In this document: positions 55,947-63,942 of the stretch, piece by piece
How the letters are laid out: every line of letters begins with the position of its first letter
How positions within the stretch are numbered: the stretch's first letter is position 1
Assembly: GCA_040752575.1 (NCBI GenBank)
Contig: JBFMGK010000067.1
Location: 1,931 to 65,930 of the forward strand
From: Candidatus Bipolaricaulota bacterium
Lineage (GTDB): Bacteria > Bipolaricaulota > Bipolaricaulia > UBA7950 > UBA9294
Length of the DNA: 64,000 bases
Direction: 5' to 3'
The notes under the pieces: model-generated
The model's database searches: none
Seen by the model: only the letters and a program-made list of their open reading frames with translations
What the model was told of the DNA's origin: nothing
Translations under genes and position numbers: made by a program

Positions 55947-57002
55947 TTAGTCGCTCCCGCGACTCTCCGCCGGGAAGTCCGCGCCGCCCTGCAGGTCGAT
56001 CTCGCCGGACTCTCCCGTCGTTCCACGGAGCACAAGCCCGCGAACGCCATCCACGCGAAGCAGAGCGTAGTCGGGATCCTCCGCGCCTCCCGGCCAATCG
56101 TCTCGCCACTCCTCGCGCCAGGCCCGTCGCGTGCGCGCGACGTCCGGCTCGAGGACGGCGCGGCCATGGAGCGAGGCGTAGTTGAACCTCTCGTTGTCGA
56201 CGAATAGGAGCGTTACTTGCGGGTGGGCTGCTACCTGCGCGACCTTCTGCGAACTTCGGGATGTGGGGAACCACAGCGTGGCTCCCTCGCGATCGACAAT
56301 CCTCATCGGCCGCGCGGTCGGGAAACCGTCCTCACCCAGGGTCACCAGCAAAGGAAACGTCATCGCATTGACCACGGCCCAGAAGGCCTCCGAGGCGCTC
56401 TCGCGGCTTTTCGGTGCCGGGTCCGGGGTCTGAATGATGTCGGCTCCGTCGATGGAGAACGAATGAACCACGCGGTCGACAAGCTCCGTGCGGACGAGGA
56501 GCACCGCCACGGCGGTCGACTGCAGAACCCGGCGAAGCGTCGCTGCATGCCCTCCACCGTCCAGTTCCCAGCGACCGATCTCGTCCACGACGACGACCTC
56601 CGCCTTGTCAAGGGCCCCTTGCAGTGCCCGGCGCGCGAACTCCAACCCGCTCTCTCGGACGAAGAAGCGACCCACGGGGATTCCCGGGGGAGAGGTGCGG
56701 GCGAAGGGCACGTCTTCGCCGCTCATCAGATCCAGCGCGTTGTACCCCGTGGTCTGCCCGCGATCGAGGAGGCGCGGCGCAAGCACCCCCCCGACCGGCG
56801 TTCCGTTCGCGCGGAGTTGCTGCACCAATCGCAGAGCGGCGGCCGTCTTCCCCGCCCCGATCTCCCCCGCGAGGATCACCGCGCGCCCGGGGCGCCGCCC
56901 CCGGTCGCCACGGAGTTGGTTCAGCACGGCAGCGTAGAGATCGGAGTCCAGGGCGTCTCTCCACGCGTTGCGGCGCTTCGGCGCGTGCGGCGAGGGATTC
57001 AA
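55947..57002 (-). CDS. fusion protein: THEP1/NTPase_1-like P-loop NTPase plus PNPOx-like FMN-binding split-barrel domain
   Basis: N-terminal domain with P-loop AGEIGAGKT and Walker B VVVDEIGRWE. C-terminal ~150 aa has the pyridoxamine-5'-phosphate-oxidase-like / general stress protein 26 pattern. ATGA overlap with the upstream PLP-enzyme gene. Confidence 0.6.
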   Translation of the reverse strand: MNPSPHAPKRRNAWRDALDSDLYAAVLNQLRGDRGRRPGRAVILAGEIGAGKTAAALRLVQQLRANGTPVGGVLAPRLLDRGQTTGYNALDLMSGEDVPFARTSPPGIPVGRFFVRESGLEFARRALQGALDKAEVVVVDEIGRWELDGGGHAATLRRVLQSTAVAVLLVRTELVDRVVHSFSIDGADIIQTPDPAPKSRESASEAFWAVVNAMTFPLLVTLGEDGFPTARPMRIVDREGATLWFPTSRSSQKVAQVAAHPQVTLLFVDNERFNYASLHGRAVLEPDVARTRRAWREEWRDDWPGGAEDPDYALLRVDGVRGLVLRGTTGESGEIDLQGGADFPAESRGSD

Positions 57003-58474
57003 CGCGAGAGCTCCTTCAGCAGGCCGACGTCATCGTTGAACGATGCGATGGCTTCGTCGATCGCCGGGACCATCTCGTGGATTCGCTCCCAGTAGCCGGG
57101 GAAATCGTTCCACTGAGCGTTGAGTTCTTCGACGGACCTCCCCATCTGCTCCACCCACGTGAAGTACTTCAGCTGATGGATCCGTCGGCGATCCGCCTGA
57201 CGGAGTTCCAGAACGTGGTCAGTGCCCTGCCCGCGCAGTCGGGCGTGGAAGTCGAGGACGGCATTGCGCTCCGCGTACGGTCCGTGCAAGGCGTCCAGCT
57301 CGGCGATACGCGTGCGATAGAGCTCCATCGAGTCGGTCATCACGGTGAGGACAATGTCGCCGGCTCCGAGTTCGTAGTACTTCGCGAACTTGATCGCGGA
57401 CAGAAGATTCGCAACGCTGGAGATGCCCAACAGGTCGAGTTGCTCAACCAGGGGTTCCGGGACGCCTTCGCGAACGAGGAATTGCCTTCCAAGAGGCTCG
57501 TTGAACAGGCGGAGGAGCGCCATCGCATCGTCATCGTCGATGGCCATGACCATGTCGGTGTTTCGCACGTTGTGGATCCAAGGAATATGCTTGTCTCCGA
57601 TTCCCTCGATACGGTGCGCGCCGAAGCCGTTCTCCAACAGCGTGGGACACTGCAGCGCTTCCGAGACGGCCAACTTGCTCGCCGGGAACCGCTGCTTCAG
57701 GAAGTCCCCGCAGCCGGTCGTTCCGGCCGATCCCGAGGTCAGGACGACGCCGGCGTAGCTGCCCCGATGCCCCTGCGCCTCGATAACGTCGGCCATGGCG
57801 TGGCCGGTCACGTCGTAGTGCCAAAGGTGGTTTCCCGGTTCGTCGAATTGGTTGAAGATGTAGACGTTCTCGCGCGTTGCCTGGAGTTCCTTGCACTTCT
57901 GGAAGATCTCCCAGACATTCGACTCGGATCCCGGCGTGGCGATGACTTCACCTGCAACCTGCGACAGCCACTCGAACCGCTCGCGCGACATCCCCTGCGG
58001 GAGGATGGCGATGGACTCGCAGGCCAACAGGTTCGCGTCGTAGGCTCCGCCGCGGCAGTAGTTTCCCGTCGAGGGCCAGACGGCCTTGTGGAAGGTCGGG
58101 TCGAACTGACCGGTGACGAGCCTTGGAACCAAGCAGCCAAACGTAGCGCCCACTTTGTGCGCTCCCGTGGGGAACCACTTTCCGACGAGCGCGATGATCC
58201 GCGCAGGCACCCCCGTAAGCTCCTCCGGGAACTCGAGGGTATTGACGCCGCCGAATCCGCCGCCTCGCTGGACGGGCTCGTTCTTCCACGTGATGCGGAA
58301 CAGGTTCAGCGGATGGAGATCCCACAGGCCGATGGCGGCGAGACGCTCGACGATGGCGGGGGGAATCTGCGCCGGTTCCTTCATCTGCGCGAACGTGGGG
58401 ATGATGATCCCCCTCTCGCGCGCCCGTCGAACGGCCCGCTCCCTTGGTTCACGTCGCACCTCTAGATCGATCAT
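56999..58474 (-). CDS. fold-type II (TrpB-like) PLP-dependent enzyme
   Basis: Start at MIDLEVRREP with GAGGGAGG 6 nt upstream. TrpB-type lysine motif PTGAHK. Glycine-rich phosphate loop TSGSAGTTG. ~490 aa with N- and C-terminal extensions beyond a minimal TrpB/CysK core. Confidence 0.65.
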   Translation of the reverse strand: MIDLEVRREPRERAVRRARERGIIIPTFAQMKEPAQIPPAIVERLAAIGLWDLHPLNLFRITWKNEPVQRGGGFGGVNTLEFPEELTGVPARIIALVGKWFPTGAHKVGATFGCLVPRLVTGQFDPTFHKAVWPSTGNYCRGGAYDANLLACESIAILPQGMSRERFEWLSQVAGEVIATPGSESNVWEIFQKCKELQATRENVYIFNQFDEPGNHLWHYDVTGHAMADVIEAQGHRGSYAGVVLTSGSAGTTGCGDFLKQRFPASKLAVSEALQCPTLLENGFGAHRIEGIGDKHIPWIHNVRNTDMVMAIDDDDAMALLRLFNEPLGRQFLVREGVPEPLVEQLDLLGISSVANLLSAIKFAKYYELGAGDIVLTVMTDSMELYRTRIAELDALHGPYAERNAVLDFHARLRGQGTDHVLELRQADRRRIHQLKYFTWVEQMGRSVEELNAQWNDFPGYWERIHEMVPAIDEAIASFNDDVGLLKELSR

Positions 58475-58486
58475 CCCTTGCCTCCC

Positions 58487-58508
58487 TCGCAGCTTCGGCC
58501 CGCCTGCG
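58487..58508. promoter_or_regulatory. palindrome CGCAG-N11-CTGCG in divergent intergenic region
   Basis: Lies between the divergently transcribed PLP-enzyme and hydantoinase genes. Its GCAG...CTGC half-sites resemble the repeats upstream of arcC. Confidence 0.3.
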
Positions 58509-58592
58509 TCAACACACATTGAGGCCGCTCGACGTTCATGCTATCATGCAGTCAGACCGGTTCGCAAGACGGCCAAGGGAAGGGAACGGAAC

Positions 58593-59963
58593 GTGCAGGC
58601 TGAGCTCGCCATACGCGGGGGCACCGTCGTCACGCCGTGGGCGGCGTTCACGTCGGACGTCGCGATCGAAGGTGGACGTATTGCGGCCGTCGGAGACCAC
58701 CAGCGAGGGCGGCGCGAGATCGACGCCACGGGGATGCTCGTCCTGCCGGGAGCGATCGACGCGCACACACACATGGCCGCCCCCGTGGCCGGTCAACGCT
58801 CAAGCGACGACTTCCTTTCGGGATCGCGTGCCGCGGCGAGCGGCGGCGTCACGACAATCATCGACTTCACGGCAGGCTCTCCCGAACGTTCGATTCCCGA
58901 GGCGATCGAGGCGCGCGAACGCGATGCCGCACCCTGTATTGTTGACTACGCTTTGCACGGAGAGGTCGTGGGATGGACGCCCGGTCGCGAAAGCGAGTTC
59001 GGGGACGCGGTCGAGCTCGGGGTGGCGAGCTTCAAGTTCTACACAACGTATGAGTCGTCTGGGTTGAGGACGCCGCCGGACATCATGGCGCCTGCCTTCC
59101 GTGAGCTGGCGTTTCTTGGCGCGATCGCCCTCGTGCACGCCGAAGACGAGGGGCTTCTGCGCTCCATGGCCGCCCGGCTGAACGAAGCGGACCGCGGCCG
59201 CATGGCGACGCTGGCCGAGGCTCGCCCGGATCTGGCCGAAGCCGCCGCCATTTCTCAGGTCGGACGTCTGGCCCGCGACGCAGGCTGTCGACTCCACATC
59301 GTCCATGTGAGCTCGGCAGCAGGCCTCAGCGCCGTTCGCGCCGCGCGCGCTGCAGGCGGCCGGCTCACGGCCGAGACGTGCCCGCAGTATCTCCTGCTCA
59401 CGCGCGATGTGTACGACCTGCCCGACGGACACCTCTTCGCCGTCATGCCGCCGCTGCGACGCGCGGAGGACCGTCGCACTCTCTGGTCCGGACTCGCGCG
59501 GCGCGACCTGGACTTCGTGGCCACGGATCACTGCCCGTTCACCCGCGCGCAGAAGGCGTGGAGAGGAGCGTTCGACCTCGTAGCCTACGGCCTTCCGGGA
59601 GTCGAGACGCTTCTGCCTCTCCTGTTCTCGGAGGGTGTCGCCAAGGGACGTCTCGCCTTGCCCGACGTCGTACGTCTTCTTGCCGAGGGACCGGCGAGAA
59701 CCTACGGCCTCTACCCCGCGAAGGGGAGCCTCGAGGTGGGCGCCGATGCCGATGTCGTGTTGTTCGATCCGGCTGCCGCGTGGACGATCCGGGCGAGCGA
59801 TCTCCATATGGAAACCGACTTCTCGCCGTATGAGGGCTTCGGAGTCACGGGCCGTGTCGTCCGAACCCTCTCGAGAGGCGAAGAGATCTTCCGGGACGGC
59901 GAGATCGTCGCCTCCGCCGGGCGGGGCCACCGTGTGCACACGAAGCCCCTCGAGGTTTTGTGA
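58593..59963 (+). CDS. D-hydantoinase / dihydropyrimidinase-family cyclic amidohydrolase
   Basis: GTG start with GGGAAGGGAA upstream. Metal ligands IDAHTH. Carbamylated-lysine context SFKFYTTY, plus VHAED, HIVHVSS and ATDHCPF. The ORF-track N-terminal extension is rejected. Confidence 0.85.
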   Translation: MQAELAIRGGTVVTPWAAFTSDVAIEGGRIAAVGDHQRGRREIDATGMLVLPGAIDAHTHMAAPVAGQRSSDDFLSGSRAAASGGVTTIIDFTAGSPERSIPEAIEARERDAAPCIVDYALHGEVVGWTPGRESEFGDAVELGVASFKFYTTYESSGLRTPPDIMAPAFRELAFLGAIALVHAEDEGLLRSMAARLNEADRGRMATLAEARPDLAEAAAISQVGRLARDAGCRLHIVHVSSAAGLSAVRAARAAGGRLTAETCPQYLLLTRDVYDLPDGHLFAVMPPLRRAEDRRTLWSGLARRDLDFVATDHCPFTRAQKAWRGAFDLVAYGLPGVETLLPLLFSEGVAKGRLALPDVVRLLAEGPARTYGLYPAKGSLEVGADADVVLFDPAAAWTIRASDLHMETDFSPYEGFGVTGRVVRTLSRGEEIFRDGEIVASAGRGHRVHTKPLEVL

Positions 59964-60018
59964 CGCCCCGGAACCGACGGACGGCTGAGGCCCCGGGATC
60001 CGGGGGCGAGGAGGAAGC

Positions 60019-60727
60019 GGTGCGCTTTCAGAGAGTCCAGCCGAGGAAGGTTTCGGCTATCGCCGCGGAGCAGATCCTCGCCGCGATCGAGCGCGGCGAT
60101 TACCCCGTTGGCAGCCGCCTACCCTCGGAGTTCGATCTGGCGCTCCAGATGGGCGTGAGTCGCCCGTCGATCCGCGAGGCGCTCTCCGCCCTCCAAGCCA
60201 TGGGCGTTGTCGAATCGAAGCCGGGAAGCGGGAACTACATCCTGCGCACCGCTTCGACGGCCGACCAGTTCCATGCCGTCGGACTGATGGAGAGCGAAGC
60301 CAGTTGTCTCGAGGTGATGGACGCCCGGGGCGCGCTCGAACCGGCCGTGGCGGCCCTCGCAGCGCAGAAGGCCGACGAGTCCGCCGTTGTACGGCTTAGG
60401 GAAGCCATTGAACGCATGCGGCAACTCGCGGCAGCGAACGACTTTGAGGCGTACTTCGAGGCAGATCGAGCTTTCCACGAGGAGCTGTCCGCCGGTTCGG
60501 GGAATCCGCTCATCGCATCGGCGCTCGCTCCCCTGATCGCGACGATGGGACAGACCGTCTACCGGAAGTTCACGAGGCACTACTACCTCAAGAATGTGAG
60601 CGATCTCCAGCACGTGGTCGACCTCCATCAGGAGATCCTCGATGCCGTGGAGAAAGCTGACGCCGAAACCGCGCGGGCGAAGATGGAGGAACACTGGGCG
60701 CGCATGCGCGAGATCTGGGAAGCGTAG
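60019..60727 (+). CDS. GntR-family (FadR/FCD subfamily) transcriptional regulator
   Basis: N-terminal winged HTH (LPSEFDLALQMGVSRPSIREAL) and C-terminal all-helical FCD domain. The start is either the GTG at 60019 after GAGGAGGAAG, or the GTG at 59960 overlapping the hydantoinase stop. Confidence 0.8.
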
Positions 60728-60735
60728 TGGAGAGG

Positions 60736-60817
60736 CGGCAGCCCCTGTGCCTGCCGCAGATCGAGAGAGGATGGGGCGGCAGTCCCTGTGCCTGCCGCAG
60801 ATCGAGAGAAAGGATGA
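60736..60817 (+). repeat. tandem direct repeat (2 × ~40 bp) with internal palindrome upstream of arcC
   Basis: GCGGCAG[C/T]CCCTGTGCCTGCCGCAGATCGAGAGA(G/AA)GGATG(G/A) occurs twice, head to tail. Each copy contains the inverted repeat CGGCAG-N9-CTGCCG and a GAGAGRGG-ATG translation-initiation-like segment. Confidence 0.7.
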
Positions 60818-60821
60818 TGGG

Positions 60822-61775
60822 ATGGCGAGCGAGAAGCAGCTGGTCGTCGTTGCCCTGGGCGGGAATGCCATTCTCCAGCCCGGGCAGCGCGGAACCTTCG
60901 AAGAGCAGATGAAGAACGTCCACCTGACTTGCGAGCAGTTGGCGCACATGGTGGAGTCCGGACGTTACCGAGTCGTGGTGACCCACGGCAACGGGCCGCA
61001 GGTGGGCAACATCCTGCTGCAGAACGAGGTCGGCAAGGAGGTCGCCGCGCCGATGCCGCTGTTTGTCTGCGGAGCCGAGAGCCAGGGGCTTATCGGGTTC
61101 ATGATCCAGCAGAACCTGAGCAACCTTCTTGCCGCCAAAGGGCGCGCGGACATCCCGGTAGCCACCCTGGTAACCCAGGTTGTCGTCGACGCAGACGACG
61201 AAGCCTTCCGTCACCCGACCAAGCCCGTGGGGCCGTTCTACACAGCCGAAGAAGCGAAGCGATTGAGCGAAGAGAAAGGTTACGACGTCAAGGAGGACGC
61301 GGGTCGCGGCTGGCGTCGGGTCGTTGCGTCTCCAGATCCGAAGGAGATCTTCGAGAAGGAGGCCATCCGGCAACTCATTGCCGCTCGCGCGATCGTCATT
61401 GCCTCGGGAGGAGGCGGGATCCCCGTCGTCCGCGAGGACGGGCAATTGCGGGGCGTCGACGCGGTCATCGACAAGGACCTTGCGGGCGAACGGCTTGCCG
61501 CGGATGTCGGCGCATCCATTTTCATGATCCTGACCGACGTCGAGCAGGCGAAGCTCCACCACCGCACGCCGCAGGAGAAGGCGCTCAGCCGCCTCACCGT
61601 GCGCGAGGCGAGTCAGTACCTCGCCGAGGGGCACTTTGCCAAGGGGTCCATGGAGCCGAAGGTCCGCGCCGCGGTCCGTTTCGTCGAGTCGGGAGGAGAG
61701 AAGGCCATCATCACCTCGCTCGACAAGGCCACCGACGCCTTGGAGGGCAAGGCGGGCACGACCATCACACGATAG
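60822..61775 (+). CDS. arcC: carbamate kinase
   Basis: MASEKQLVVVALGGNAI (carbamate-kinase N-terminus). AAK-fold motifs VVTHGNGPQVG and IASGGGGIPV. 317 aa from this start. An in-frame ATG 51 nt upstream lies inside the first repeat copy. Confidence 0.85.
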   Translation: MASEKQLVVVALGGNAILQPGQRGTFEEQMKNVHLTCEQLAHMVESGRYRVVVTHGNGPQVGNILLQNEVGKEVAAPMPLFVCGAESQGLIGFMIQQNLSNLLAAKGRADIPVATLVTQVVVDADDEAFRHPTKPVGPFYTAEEAKRLSEEKGYDVKEDAGRGWRRVVASPDPKEIFEKEAIRQLIAARAIVIASGGGGIPVVREDGQLRGVDAVIDKDLAGERLAADVGASIFMILTDVEQAKLHHRTPQEKALSRLTVREASQYLAEGHFAKGSMEPKVRAAVRFVESGGEKAIITSLDKATDALEGKAGTTITR

Positions 61776-61806
61776 GCAACCCACGTAACGAAAGAAGGAG
61801 AGTTCT

Positions 61807-62844
61807 ATGTCCAACACCACTCTGAGAGGGCGAGACTTCATCACCTGGCTCGAATTCACGCGCGACGAACTCGAGGCCATGCTGGATACCGCCCACGACC
61901 TGAAGCGGAAGTTCATCCGCCGCGAGCCTCACAAGGTTCTCGACGGCCAGACGCTCCACATGCTCTTCTACAACACGTCCCTGCGGACGCGCAACTCGTT
62001 TGAGGCGGCCATGACGCAGCTCGGCGGGCACGCCCACTTCCTCCAGTCCGACGCCGTCTACACGCCGGCGCTGAAGGGAGACGAGAAGGCCTACAAGACC
62101 GAGCGGATCAGCGACGTTGCCCGCGTATTGGCGGAGATGGGAGATGCCATTGCCATCCGCATCTACGGGAAGTACACCGACTGGAAGTACGGCAAGGGCA
62201 ACCAGATGATCCGCGAGTTCGCGCGCTGGTCAAAGGTCCCGGTGATCAATATGGAAGACGACATGTTCCATCCGTGCCAGGACCTTGCCGACGTCATGAC
62301 CATGCAGGAGAAGCTCGGCCACGACCTCCAGGGCAAGAAGTTCGTGATGAGCTGGGCGTATTCTGGTTCGGTGGAGAAGCCGCTCGCCGTGCCGCAGAGC
62401 TGCATCGTCGCCGCGGCGACCATGGGCATGGACGTTACGCTCGCGCACCCGAAGGGCTTCGATCTTGATCCCAAGGTTGTGCAAGCCACGAAGGATCTTG
62501 CCAAGAAGCACGGCGGCGGATTCAGGATCCTGAACGACATGGAGGAGGCCTTCAAGGGCGCCCACGTCGTGTACCCGAAGGCGTGGACGGTGCAGCCGAC
62601 CGACGGCAAGACGCCGATGGACGCGGAGAAGGCGAAGGCGCTCTTCGAAGCCAACAAACACTGGATCACGACGCAGGAGAAGATGAAGCTCACGAACGAC
62701 GCGATCTACATGCATTGTCTGCCTGCGGACCGAGACATGGAGGTGACCGACGAGGTCATCGACGGCCCCAACTCGGTGATCATCGAGCAGGCAGCCAATC
62801 GGCTGCACGGCCAGAAGGGTATGATGGCCTGCATCATGGCCTAG
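61807..62844 (+). CDS. YgeW-like divergent carbamoyltransferase (aspartate/ornithine carbamoyltransferase superfamily)
   Basis: Carbamoyl-phosphate motifs SLRTR (STRTR-like), HPCQ and HCLP. The second-substrate loop is MSWAYSG rather than OTC SMG. 345 aa. Confidence 0.8.
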   Translation: MSNTTLRGRDFITWLEFTRDELEAMLDTAHDLKRKFIRREPHKVLDGQTLHMLFYNTSLRTRNSFEAAMTQLGGHAHFLQSDAVYTPALKGDEKAYKTERISDVARVLAEMGDAIAIRIYGKYTDWKYGKGNQMIREFARWSKVPVINMEDDMFHPCQDLADVMTMQEKLGHDLQGKKFVMSWAYSGSVEKPLAVPQSCIVAAATMGMDVTLAHPKGFDLDPKVVQATKDLAKKHGGGFRILNDMEEAFKGAHVVYPKAWTVQPTDGKTPMDAEKAKALFEANKHWITTQEKMKLTNDAIYMHCLPADRDMEVTDEVIDGPNSVIIEQAANRLHGQKGMMACIMA

Positions 62845-62916
62845 GCGGGGGAAGGGGCTGCAGAGGGTCGGACGTTGCCGGATCCTCTGCGGCCCCCAGG
62901 TCCGAAGGGAGGTCAC

Positions 62917-63942
62917 ATGAGTTGGTTCGATCTCGCAGGGCGAGACCTGATCGGGGAGACGGACTGGACTCGCGAGGAGTACAACATCGCGATGAAGGTC
63001 ACCGATCAGCTCAAAGGGGCTTACTACAGCAGGCTTCCTCACCCAACCCTGCAGTACAAGACGTTTGCCATGTTGTTCTTCGCGGGCTCGACGCGAACGC
63101 GGATGTCGTTCGAGACGGCGATGACCCAACTCGGAGGGCACGCCCAGTTCATCGACCCGAAGACCATGCGCCTCTCGCTCGAGGACAAGCCGGGCGCCGG
63201 CGAGACCGTCAAGGACACGGCGGAAGCCATGGAACGCTACTGCGACGGCGTCGGCATTCGGCTCCTCGACGACGCCATCCAGCGATACGGCGAGGCGGAC
63301 GAGGTGATGCAGAAGTTCGCAAAACACTGCCGCGTGCCGATCATCAACATGGCGTCCGACATCTACCACCCGTGCCAATCGCTGACCGACATCTACACGA
63401 TGCACGAGAAGCTTGACGCGGACGTGAAGGGGAAGAAGATCGTGATCATGTGGGCCTGGTCGCCATGGATCCGCGGCTGGTGCTCGGTGCAGGGCACGGC
63501 GCTGATCTCGTCGATGTACGGGATGGACGTCGTCGTGGCGAACCCGCCCGAGTACGACCTCGACCCGAAGATCATGAAGGAGTGCCGCGATCTGGCTACG
63601 GCATCGGGCGGCTCGTTCGAGATCTCGCACGACCTGGACAAGGCGCTTGACGGCGCGACGGTCGTCTTCCCGCGCAACTGGTTCACCAAGGACCGCTACG
63701 CACTGGGAAAGGACAAAGAGGCGGAGATCGCGAAGAAGTACGCGAACTGGAAGTACTCGAGCGAGCGACAGAAGAAACTCGGGGCCCCAGGCTATCTCCT
63801 GCAGTGCATGCCCGTGGATCGCGGCAACGAGGCCGACGCCGAGGTCTGCGACAATCGCCTCTCGTGGATCCTCGATCAGGCGGAGAATCGCCTTCACACG
63901 CAGAAGGCCATTCTTACGCTGACGATGGGAGGACGTCTGTAG
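62917..63942 (+). CDS. YgeW-like divergent carbamoyltransferase, paralog 2
   Basis: Start at MSWFDLAGRDL with GGGAGG upstream. STRTR, HPCQ and a QCMP (HCLP-position) motif. Second-substrate loop IMWAWSPW. 341 aa, alignable with the preceding gene. Confidence 0.8.
   Translation: MSWFDLAGRDLIGETDWTREEYNIAMKVTDQLKGAYYSRLPHPTLQYKTFAMLFFAGSTRTRMSFETAMTQLGGHAQFIDPKTMRLSLEDKPGAGETVKDTAEAMERYCDGVGIRLLDDAIQRYGEADEVMQKFAKHCRVPIINMASDIYHPCQSLTDIYTMHEKLDADVKGKKIVIMWAWSPWIRGWCSVQGTALISSMYGMDVVVANPPEYDLDPKIMKECRDLATASGGSFEISHDLDKALDGATVVFPRNWFTKDRYALGKDKEAEIAKKYANWKYSSERQKKLGAPGYLLQCMPVDRGNEADAEVCDNRLSWILDQAENRLHTQKAILTLTMGGRL

What the first reader, a model, noticed from the sequence alone, without database searches (positions are those of the whole stretch)
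60736..60821. Tandem 40-bp repeat duplicating an operator-like palindrome and the translation-initiation region of arcC
Two head-to-tail copies each contain the perfect inverted repeat CGGCAG-N9-CTGCCG and a GAGAGRGG-ATG segment. The upstream copy creates an in-frame ATG 17 codons ahead of the canonical carbamate-kinase start (MASEKQLVVVALGGNA). Two palindromes centred ~40 bp apart, roughly four helical turns, is typical of tandem operator sites for a dimeric HTH regulator. The adjacent GntR/FCD regulator is the obvious candidate. A related GCAG-N11-CTGC palindrome sits in the divergent PLP-enzyme/hydantoinase intergenic region at 58487–58508. Alternatively this is a recent slipped duplication producing an N-terminally extended ArcC isoform.
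Basis: seen in the sequence. Interest (0 to 1): 0.6.

Follow-up and report, generated by a model that had tools for sequence, protein, structure and literature searches.

The report
Private 41-bp duplication upstream of arcC
A short hairpin-forming stretch between a regulator gene and the carbamate kinase gene has been copied once, head to tail, in this one uncultured bacterium; it looks like an ordinary replication slip and not a regulator binding site, and the likely binding site sits 2.2 kb upstream at the operon's promoter.

Summary
A 35-nt segment occurs twice, 41 bp apart, with 34/35 identity (60734-60768 and 60775-60809). Each copy carries GCGGCAG-N9-CTGCCGC. An in-frame ATG lies 17 codons before the arcC start. 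It is the longest short-range direct repeat in the 64-kb window.

The operator reading is not supported:
- None of 13 close orthologous loci (arcC 84-87% identical) has the palindrome or the duplication. None of 81 related Bipolaricaulota loci has even an approximate copy.
- The GntR recognition region is almost unchanged across these loci.
- The palindrome lacks the GT-Nx-AC core of GntR/FadR operators.
- 7-bp palindromes of this kind occur at the chance rate in the window.
- The "related" GCAG-N11-CTGC site is also at chance level.

A promoter plus operator-like element conserved across the phylum lies at 58519-58571, at the head of the hyd-gntR-arcC-otc-otc operon. It has no counterpart in the gntR-arcC spacer.

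In deep-branching relatives that spacer is only 12-28 nt, so co-transcription of gntR and arcC is probably ancestral.

Best reading: a lineage-specific slipped tandem duplication of an intercistronic hairpin plus part of the ribosome-binding region, probably near-neutral. The upstream ATG lies inside the copied SD-like motif, and the database annotation and all orthologues use the canonical start. An RNA-level role for the hairpins is possible but has no statistical support.

The parts
60734..60768 (+). Copy 1 of the direct repeat (35 nt aligned without gaps). The full unit is about 41 nt, 60735-60775.
60775..60809 (+). Copy 2 of the direct repeat, 34/35 identical to copy 1. The full unit is about 46 nt and runs to 60821, just before the arcC start.
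60735..60757 (.). Inverted repeat 1: GCGGCAG-CCCCTGTGC-CTGCCGC (7-bp arms, 9-nt centre). As RNA the 29-nt segment folds at -13.1 kcal/mol, not better than shuffles (z = -1.36).
60776..60798 (.). Inverted repeat 2: GCGGCAG-TCCCTGTGC-CTGCCGC. RNA fold -13.1 kcal/mol, z = -0.66.
60763..60773 (+). Copied SD-like purine run GAGAGAGG, directly abutting the in-frame ATG at 60771 with no spacing. A probable by-product of the duplication.
60804..60824 (+). Canonical ribosome-binding region GAGAGAAAGGATGATGGG plus ATG 60822. It matches the GGAAAGGTGATSGR-ATG motif conserved in the closer orthologues (about L001-L040).
60020..60727 (+). GntR/FCD (FadR-subfamily) regulator gene, stop TAG 60725-60727. The start is most likely GTG 60020, behind GAGGAGGAAG; the longest ORF starts at 59960.
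60822..61775 (+). arcC, carbamate kinase, 317 aa (TIGR00746, 430.9 bits against a cut-off of 358).
58519..58571 (+). Operon promoter (TTGAGG-17-TATCAT with extended -10) followed by the conserved element GCAGTCAGACCGGTTCGCAAGAC. This is the best candidate for the GntR operator. It is not part of the repeat but bears directly on its interpretation.
58489..58507 (.). It is a chance-level match with different spacing.

Best explanation
The feature is a private tandem duplication of about 41 bp. It arose in this Bipolaricaulota lineage inside the intercistronic spacer between gntR and arcC. Both genes belong to one operon, hyd-gntR-arcC-otc1-otc2, which is transcribed from a promoter 2.2 kb upstream at about 58519-58547.

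The duplicated unit was the whole stretch from an ordinary GC-rich hairpin-forming palindrome (GCGGCAG-N9-CTGCCGC) to the purine-rich ribosome-binding region just before the start codon. The most economical mechanism is replication slippage or template switching, which a hairpin in the template favours. This step is inferred, not shown. One substitution and two small indels have accumulated since.

The duplication lengthened the spacer from about 53 to 94 nt. It added a second stem-loop and a decoy SD-like/ATG segment. The canonical SD and ATG 60822 were left intact. The two evenly spaced palindromes and the in-frame upstream ATG are therefore by-products of the duplication, not designed operator sites or a second start. 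The effect on expression is probably small.

Control by the GntR regulator is most likely exerted at the conserved promoter-proximal element at 58537-58571.
For: - The repeat is real and unique in 64 kb.
- The window is Bipolaricaulota, and the gene order plp<->(hyd)-gntR-arcC-otc-otc is conserved across the phylum.
- The 13 nearest orthologous loci have a 39-52 nt spacer with neither the palindrome nor the duplication. The window's 94 nt is roughly one extra unit.
- No approximate copy of the 35-mer, 23-mer or 26-mer exists in 81 related loci.
- Only one database protein is more than 86% identical to this ArcC, so the feature is confined to one known genome.
- Deep-branching relatives have only 12-28 nt (a bare SD) between gntR and arcC. 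Co-transcription is therefore ancestral and no operator is needed there.
- No promoter-like or terminator-like site was found in the spacer.
- A conserved promoter plus downstream element lies at 58519-58571. A PWM built from 40 other loci scores 40.9 bits there, the next best position in the window scores -7.4, and the best inside the gntR-arcC spacer scores -30.
- Palindromes with 7-bp stems occur at the background rate.
- RNA folds of the unit and of the whole spacer are no more stable than shuffles.
- Other lineages carry unrelated tandem repeats in intercistronic spacers of the same operon: L019 and L012 in gntR-arcC, L001 and L008 in otc1-otc2. Slippage in these spacers is therefore common.
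Against: - No closely related strain (more than 87% ArcC identity) is available, so the single-copy ancestor is reconstructed, not observed.
- Several relatives also have a stem-loop right after the gntR stop, including L003 and the L005/L006/L026 group. A sister clade has arrays of hairpins there with strong fold z-scores. Some selection for structure in this spacer therefore cannot be excluded.
- The copies have stayed 34/35 identical over the hairpin part while the 3' part picked up indels. This could reflect constraint or simply a young age.
- There are no transcript, binding or read-level data.
Confidence: 0.7

Rival explanations
1. The stem-loops act at the RNA level inside the polycistronic transcript. 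Possible roles are barriers to 3' exonucleases, RNase processing sites, weak attenuators, or an SD-like standby or decoy site. Any of these would uncouple gntR from arcC-otc expression, and the duplication would strengthen the effect.
For: - The location is intercistronic in a co-transcribed operon.
- Each unit can form a stem-loop of about -13 kcal/mol.
- Unrelated hairpins sit just after the gntR stop in L003 (z = -2.28) and in the L005/L006/L026 group. A sister clade has hairpin arrays with z from -4.3 to -6.1 and a few compensatory changes.
Against: - Fold energies of the unit, of the spacer and of the 161-nt context are no better than dinucleotide shuffles (z = -1.36, -0.66, +0.52, +1.31).
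- No U-tract follows either stem, and the terminator scan found nothing there.
- No Rfam family matches.
- Many close relatives (L001, L002, L004, L096) and all deep-branching ones lack any hairpin there.
- The hairpins do not sequester the canonical SD or ATG.
Confidence: 0.15
2. The repeat forms tandem operators. Each palindrome binds a dimer of the adjacent GntR/FCD regulator, or of another HTH protein, four helical turns apart, and this controls an internal arcC promoter.
For: - There are two perfect 7-bp inverted repeats whose centres are 41 bp apart.
- A GntR/FCD gene lies immediately upstream.
- GntR-family regulators typically bind palindromic sites (PMC4494728).
Against: - The palindrome is absent from all orthologous loci, although the recognition region (MGVSRPSIREALSALQAM) is identical in the window and its close relatives and nearly so across the phylum.
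- It has no GT-N(0-4)-AC core and no TKGT/ACMA boxes, and its arms are G/C-rich.
- No promoter-like hexamers lie in the spacer.
- The even spacing follows trivially from the duplication.
- The conserved promoter-proximal element at 58537-58571 has no resemblance in the spacer.
- The palindrome frequency is at background.
- The 'related' 58489 site is at chance level.
Confidence: 0.05
3. The duplication creates a functional upstream start at ATG 60771, giving an ArcC isoform with a 17-residue N-terminal extension (MGRQSLCLPQIERKDDG).
For: - ATG 60771 is in frame with no intervening stop.
- A purine-rich SD-like run precedes it.
Against: - The SD-like GAGAGAGG abuts the ATG with zero spacing and pairs more weakly with an assumed canonical anti-SD (-8.2 against -12.4 kcal/mol for the canonical site).
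- The ATG corresponds to the incidental ATG triplets inside the GGATGATGGG motif of copy 2.
- Hairpin 2 starts 5 nt downstream of it.
- All orthologues start at M(A/P/Q)xEKK, and the NCBI annotation of the identical protein is 317 aa.
Confidence: 0.03
4. The duplication is an assembly artefact of the metagenome-assembled genome and does not exist in the organism.
For: - The source is a MAG.
- No second genome confirms the sequence.
Against: - The two copies differ by a substitution and two indels, and they lie deep inside a contig of about 71 kb. Assembler artefacts usually give exact k-mer-length repeats at contig ends. This last point is general knowledge and was not tested here.
Confidence: 0.03

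Closest known systems
Slipped-strand (replication slippage) tandem duplications in non-coding DNA
   Same: There are two head-to-tail copies with near identity and a short unit containing a hairpin-forming palindrome. The duplication is absent from relatives and lies in a non-coding spacer that tolerates length change. Other lineages carry unrelated tandem repeats in spacers of the same operon.
   Different: The breakpoints show at most 1-2 nt of microhomology, so the exact mechanism cannot be read from the sequence. The single-copy ancestor has not been observed.
GntR/FadR-subfamily operators (palindromes of the NyGT-Nx-AC-Ny type with TKGT/ACMA boxes; PMC4494728)
   Same: The sequence is palindromic and lies next to a GntR/FCD gene.
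   Different: - It has no GT..AC core and its arms are G/C-rich.
- The 9-nt centre is not symmetric.
- It is not conserved in any orthologous locus despite a conserved HTH.
- It does not lie at a promoter.
- The conserved site at 58548-58571 contains AGT-CAG-AC and, in deeper lineages, cTGTCTGACAg. That site fits the family pattern far better.
REP/BIME-type extragenic palindromes and intercistronic mRNA-stabilising stem-loops
   Same: It is a GC-rich imperfect hairpin between two genes of one operon, just after a stop codon, without a U-tract.
   Different: REP elements are dispersed in many copies. Here there are only the two adjacent copies in 64 kb, none in 81 related loci, and none in related metagenome contigs. 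A stabilising function has not been tested.
Rho-independent terminators / attenuators
   Same: It has a GC-rich stem-loop downstream of a stop codon.
   Different: No T-run follows either stem on either strand, and the scan found no terminator-like site in the spacer.

Membership tests
GntR/FadR-subfamily operator | Palindrome matching NyGT-Nx-AC-Ny, with TKGT/ACMA boxes and GT-AC distance usually 3 nt (PMC4494728) | tested here: not met
   GCGGCAG-CCCCTGTGC-CTGCCGC has no GT-N(0-4)-AC around its centre, and its arms are G/C-rich (consensus read).
GntR/FadR-subfamily operator | Site conserved in orthologous loci that encode a regulator with the same recognition helix | tested here: not met
   The site is absent from the 13 closest loci and from all 81 related loci. 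The HTH region is nearly invariant.
GntR/FadR-subfamily operator | Position at or near the promoter of the regulated operon | tested here: not met
   No promoter-like site lies in 60728-60821. The spacer is only 12-28 nt in deep lineages. The conserved promoter is at 58519-58547.
GntR/FadR-subfamily operator | Specific binding by the regulator protein | not testable with these tools
   This needs EMSA or footprinting.
Tandem duplication by slippage | Head-to-tail copies with high identity, far beyond chance | tested here: met
   34/35 identity at 41-bp spacing. None of 100 shuffles gave a match. It is the longest local repeat in 64 kb.
Tandem duplication by slippage | Derived state: relatives have a shorter spacer without the second copy | tested here: met
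   Spacers are 39-52 nt in the 13 nearest loci against 94 nt here. Caveat: the nearest relative is only 87% identical in ArcC, and its spacer sequence cannot be aligned outside the SD.
REP/BIME-like dispersed palindromic element | Many dispersed copies in intergenic regions of the genome | tested here: not met
   Only the two adjacent copies occur in the 64-kb window, allowing 3 mismatches. There are none in 81 related loci. The metagenome hits are unrelated coding sequences. The rest of the source genome could not be searched.
Intrinsic terminator | GC-rich stem-loop followed by a U-tract | tested here: not met
   The tails are AGATCGAGAGA on the + strand and CTCTCCACT on the - strand. The scan found no site in the spacer.
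Curated structured RNA (Rfam) | Match to a covariance model | tested here: not met
   No relevant match at E <= 10 in 58000-62000 and none at gathering score in the whole window.
Carbamate kinase ArcC (flanking gene) | Score above the TIGR00746 equivalog cut-off; conserved N-terminus | tested here: met
   430.9 bits against a cut-off of 358.25. The N-terminus aligns from residue 1 with the orthologues.

The most novel reading that the evidence does not exclude
The duplicated stem-loop plus SD-like module is a selected intercistronic insulator. Two hairpins and a decoy ribosome-binding site would tune processing, decay or translation so that the catabolic genes (arcC-otc-otc) are expressed independently of the regulator gene upstream of them. 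Other Bipolaricaulota lineages show independent expansions of hairpin-bearing tandem repeats in spacers of the same operon (L012, L019, L001, L008). On this reading those expansions would be convergent solutions to the same problem.
Probability: 0.08. Interest if true: 0.45.

Novelty: new member of a known kind. Interest (0 to 1): 0.12.

Why it matters
It matters little in itself. The result removes a false lead: the evenly spaced palindromes come from a duplication and are not a designed operator pair.

The useful by-product is a testable regulatory site for a conserved but uncharacterised operon of the uncultured phylum Bipolaricaulota. The operon encodes a CysK-like PLP enzyme, a dihydropyrimidinase/hydantoinase-like amidohydrolase, carbamate kinase and two carbamoyltransferases. 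It is presumably an ATP-yielding ureide catabolic route. The candidate site is the promoter-proximal element at 58537-58571.

If the low-probability RNA-insulator reading were true, it would show how operon-internal spacers evolve by repeated hairpin duplication.

Tried and rejected
- TRF did not report the repeat, either regionally or window-wide. The repeat finder did.
- Exact-sequence look-ups failed for the window's ArcC (317 aa and the 334-aa extended form), for OTC1 and for P0001. The source contig and its reads could therefore not be examined.
- The metagenome scan for the 23-nt hairpin returned 15 hits. All are unrelated: two families of soil-bacterial coding sequence plus one unrelated intergenic hairpin. 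None has the AGATCGAGAGA tail and none encodes a homologue of any operon protein.
- The viral-contig scan for the 26-mer found nothing.
- Rfam at a permissive E-value in the region, at gathering score in the whole window, and in six sister-clade loci gave nothing relevant.
- REP-like dispersed element: rejected, because there are no other copies.
- Intrinsic terminator: rejected, because there is no U-tract.
- ARG-box/ArgR-type site: considered from memory because of the arginine-deiminase-type genes. Rejected without a formal test, because ARG boxes are A/T-rich and this palindrome is G/C-rich.
- CRISPR-like array: rejected, because there are only two copies with a 6-nt gap.
- Similarity between the repeat and the conserved promoter element: tested with PWMs and absent.
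- Literature searches found no description of this operon in Bipolaricaulota.

Full report
**What is there.** The stretch 60728-60821 is the 94-nt spacer between the stop codon of a GntR/FCD regulator gene (TAG 60725-60727) and the start of arcC (ATG 60822).
- It contains a 35-nt segment twice, head to tail, at 60734-60768 and 60775-60809. Identity is 34/35 and start-to-start spacing is 41 bp.
- With two small indels the similarity runs on to the ribosome-binding region: GAGAGA--GGATG---GGG in copy 1 against GAGAGAAAGGATGATGGG in copy 2.
- Each copy carries the perfect inverted repeat GCGGCAG-N9-CTGCCGC.
- ATG 60771 in copy 1 is in frame with arcC, 17 codons upstream, with no stop between them.

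**Is it more than chance?**
- The direct repeat certainly is. No shuffle of the window gave any match to the 23-mer with up to three mismatches. It is the longest short-range direct repeat in the 64-kb window.
- The palindrome as such is not. The window holds 99 perfect inverted repeats with 7-bp stems and 3-12 nt loops, against 88.9 +/- 9.4 in first-order Markov controls.
- The GCAG-N11-CTGC site at 58489-58507, offered as a related palindrome, has a different spacing. It is at chance level: 3 observed against 1.72 expected, and 27 of 100 shuffles do as well.

**Context.** ArcC relatives place the window in Bipolaricaulota (Acetothermia). An identical 317-aa protein is annotated by NCBI as carbamate kinase of a Bipolaricaulota MAG, and the next best database protein is only 86% identical.
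- The local genes are:
  - a CysK-like PLP enzyme on the minus strand (56999-58474);
  - a dihydropyrimidinase/hydantoinase-like amidohydrolase (58593-59963);
  - gntR (most likely 60020-60727);
  - arcC (60822-61775);
  - two paralogous ornithine-carbamoyltransferase-like genes (61807-62844, and about 62917-63942).
- This order is conserved across about 60 Bipolaricaulota loci. In many of them the amidohydrolase is missing, so gntR is the first gene after the divergent spacer.

**Comparison with orthologous loci.**
- In the 13 nearest loci (L001-L011, L026, L096; ArcC 84-87% identical) the gntR-arcC spacer is 39-52 nt. It contains neither the palindrome nor any duplication. Only the ribosome-binding motif (GGAAAGGTGATGGG-ATG) is shared.
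- A fuzzy search found nothing in 81 related loci, about 595 kb in total. It allowed up to 7 substitutions in the 35-mer and 4 in the 23-mer and 26-mer.
- In deep-branching lineages (L042-L067) the spacer is just 12-28 nt, a bare Shine-Dalgarno sequence. gntR and arcC are therefore ancestrally co-transcribed, and no operator is expected between them.
- The window's 94 nt equals a typical spacer of about 50 nt plus one extra unit of about 41 nt.

**Test of the operator idea.**
- The recognition region of the regulator (LPSEF-LA-QMGVSRPSIREALSALQAMG) is virtually identical between the window and its relatives. Its DNA target should therefore be conserved too.
- Such a conserved target exists, but elsewhere. 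In 41 sequences (40 loci and the window) the divergent spacer at the head of the operon contains TTGAcc, then about 18 nt, then AATGCTAtCAT, followed directly by gcTGyCTGACAGGTtGACAAg. The window's copy is 58519-58571, with TTGAGG-17-TATCAT predicted as a promoter.
- A weight matrix built from the 40 other loci scores 40.9 bits at 58537. The next best position in 64 kb scores -7.4. The best position inside the gntR-arcC spacer scores -30, which is what random positions give.
- The conserved element contains a GT-N3-AC core (window AGT-CAG-AC; deeper lineages cTGTCTGACAg). This is the hallmark of GntR/FadR-subfamily operators (PMC4494728, read).
- The duplicated palindrome has no such core, has G/C-rich arms and has an asymmetric centre.
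- No promoter-like site lies in the gntR-arcC spacer.
- The spacing of roughly four helical turns follows trivially from a 41-bp duplication.

**Test of an RNA-level role.**
- Each unit can form a stem-loop of about -13 kcal/mol. Neither the units (z = -1.36 and -0.66), nor the whole spacer (z = +0.52), nor the 161-nt context (z = +1.31) folds better than dinucleotide shuffles.
- No U-tract follows the stems, and no terminator-like site was found there. No Rfam family matches.
- The canonical SD and start codon are not sequestered.
- On the other hand, unrelated hairpins follow the gntR stop in some relatives: L003 (z = -2.28) and the L005/L006/L026 group.
- A sister clade (L012-L016, L019, L024) has 140-540 nt spacers packed with long hairpins (z from -4.3 to -6.1). 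Two of those hairpins are shared with a few compensatory changes.
- Some selective value of structure in this spacer therefore cannot be excluded. It is kept as the main rival (0.15).

**The upstream ATG.**
- It lies within the copied SD-like run (GAGAGAGG-ATG), with no spacing between the purine core and the codon.
- It corresponds to the incidental ATG triplets inside GGATGATGGG of copy 2.
- Predicted pairing with an assumed canonical anti-SD is weaker than at the true start, -8.2 against -12.4 kcal/mol. The 16S tail is assumed, because the window has no rRNA gene.
- All orthologues and the NCBI annotation begin at the canonical methionine.
- An extended isoform is therefore unlikely.

**Best explanation (confidence 0.7).** This is a lineage-specific tandem duplication of the intercistronic hairpin plus part of the ribosome-binding region. 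It most simply arose by replication slippage or template switching at the hairpin; this mechanism is inferred. One substitution and two indels followed.
- Tandem repeats of unrelated sequence occur in intercistronic spacers of the same operon in other lineages:
  - L019, 75-nt period, 3-4 copies;
  - L012, 66-69-nt period, 2 copies;
  - L001 and L008, 78-79-nt period between the two carbamoyltransferase genes.
- Such slippage is therefore common where non-coding length is free to vary.
- The consequences for expression are probably small.
- Residual possibilities are an RNA-level function (0.15), operators (0.05), an extended ArcC isoform (0.03) and an assembly artefact (0.03).

**Limits.**
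- The nearest available relative is about 13% diverged in ArcC. The single-copy ancestor is therefore inferred, not seen.
- The rest of the source genome and its reads could not be examined.
- The metagenome scan found only unrelated sequences.
- There are no expression or binding data.

**Verdict.** The feature is an ordinary private duplication of low interest. The useful lead lies elsewhere, in the conserved promoter/operator element at 58519-58571.

Noticed in passing
window 58519-58571: A promoter plus operator-like element, conserved across the phylum, lies in the divergent spacer between the PLP-enzyme gene and the hyd/gntR operon. Its consensus is TTGAcc, then about 18 nt, then AATGCTAtCAT, then gcTGyCTGACAGGTtGACAAg. 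A PWM from 40 other loci scores 40.9 bits here against -7.4 for the next best site in 64 kb. In some lineages the decamer overlapping the -10 is a perfect palindrome with a compensatory change (ATGCTAGCAT in L047/L051/L061; ATGGTACCAT in L067).
   Followed up: partly
L012:3730-4000, L014:3848-4000, L015:3740-4000, L016:3841-4000, L019:3439-3982, L024:3857-4000: In a sister clade the gntR-arcC spacer is expanded to 140-540 nt and is strongly structured (z from -4.3 to -6.1). It holds arrays of long hairpins. Two of them (GGGAATCCGCGAGCGGATTCCC and GAACCCGCC...GGTGGGTTC) are shared across species with a few compensatory changes. No Rfam family matches. This could be an undescribed leader or terminator structure upstream of arcC.
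   Followed up: partly
L019:3515-3853; L012:3808-3944; L001:6062-6220; L008:2383-2710: Independent tandem repeats of unrelated sequence occur in intercistronic spacers of the same operon in other Bipolaricaulota. L019 has a 75-nt period with 3-4 copies and L012 a 66-69-nt period with 2 copies, both in gntR-arcC. L001 and L008 have 78-79-nt periods in an otc1-otc2 spacer expanded to about 820-930 nt.
   Followed up: partly
window 56999-63942 and loci L001-L067: The gene cluster is conserved in Bipolaricaulota: a CysK-like PLP enzyme (divergent), then (dihydropyrimidinase/hydantoinase-like amidohydrolase)-gntR-arcC and two paralogous carbamoyltransferases that are 36-40% identical to each other. 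It looks like an uncharacterised ATP-yielding ureide catabolic pathway. No paper on it was found for this phylum.
   Followed up: partly
window 59960-60030 and 62875-62920: Gene starts probably differ from the longest ORFs. gntR most likely begins at GTG 60020, behind GAGGAGGAAG; homology begins at ORF residue 21-23, and a relative is called at 235 aa. otc2 most likely begins at ATG 62917, since alignments begin at ORF residue 11-15.
   Followed up: partly
L081-L095 (metagenome contigs): The exact 23-nt hairpin sequence GCGGCAGNCCCTGTGCCTGCCGC recurs in two families of unrelated soil-bacterial coding sequence and in one unrelated intergenic hairpin (L095). There is no link to this locus.
   Followed up: yes
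window 55947-57002 (- strand): An ORF combines an NTPase_1/DUF2478-type P-loop domain with a pyridoxamine-5'-phosphate-oxidase-like domain. It lies immediately downstream of the PLP-enzyme gene.
   Followed up: no
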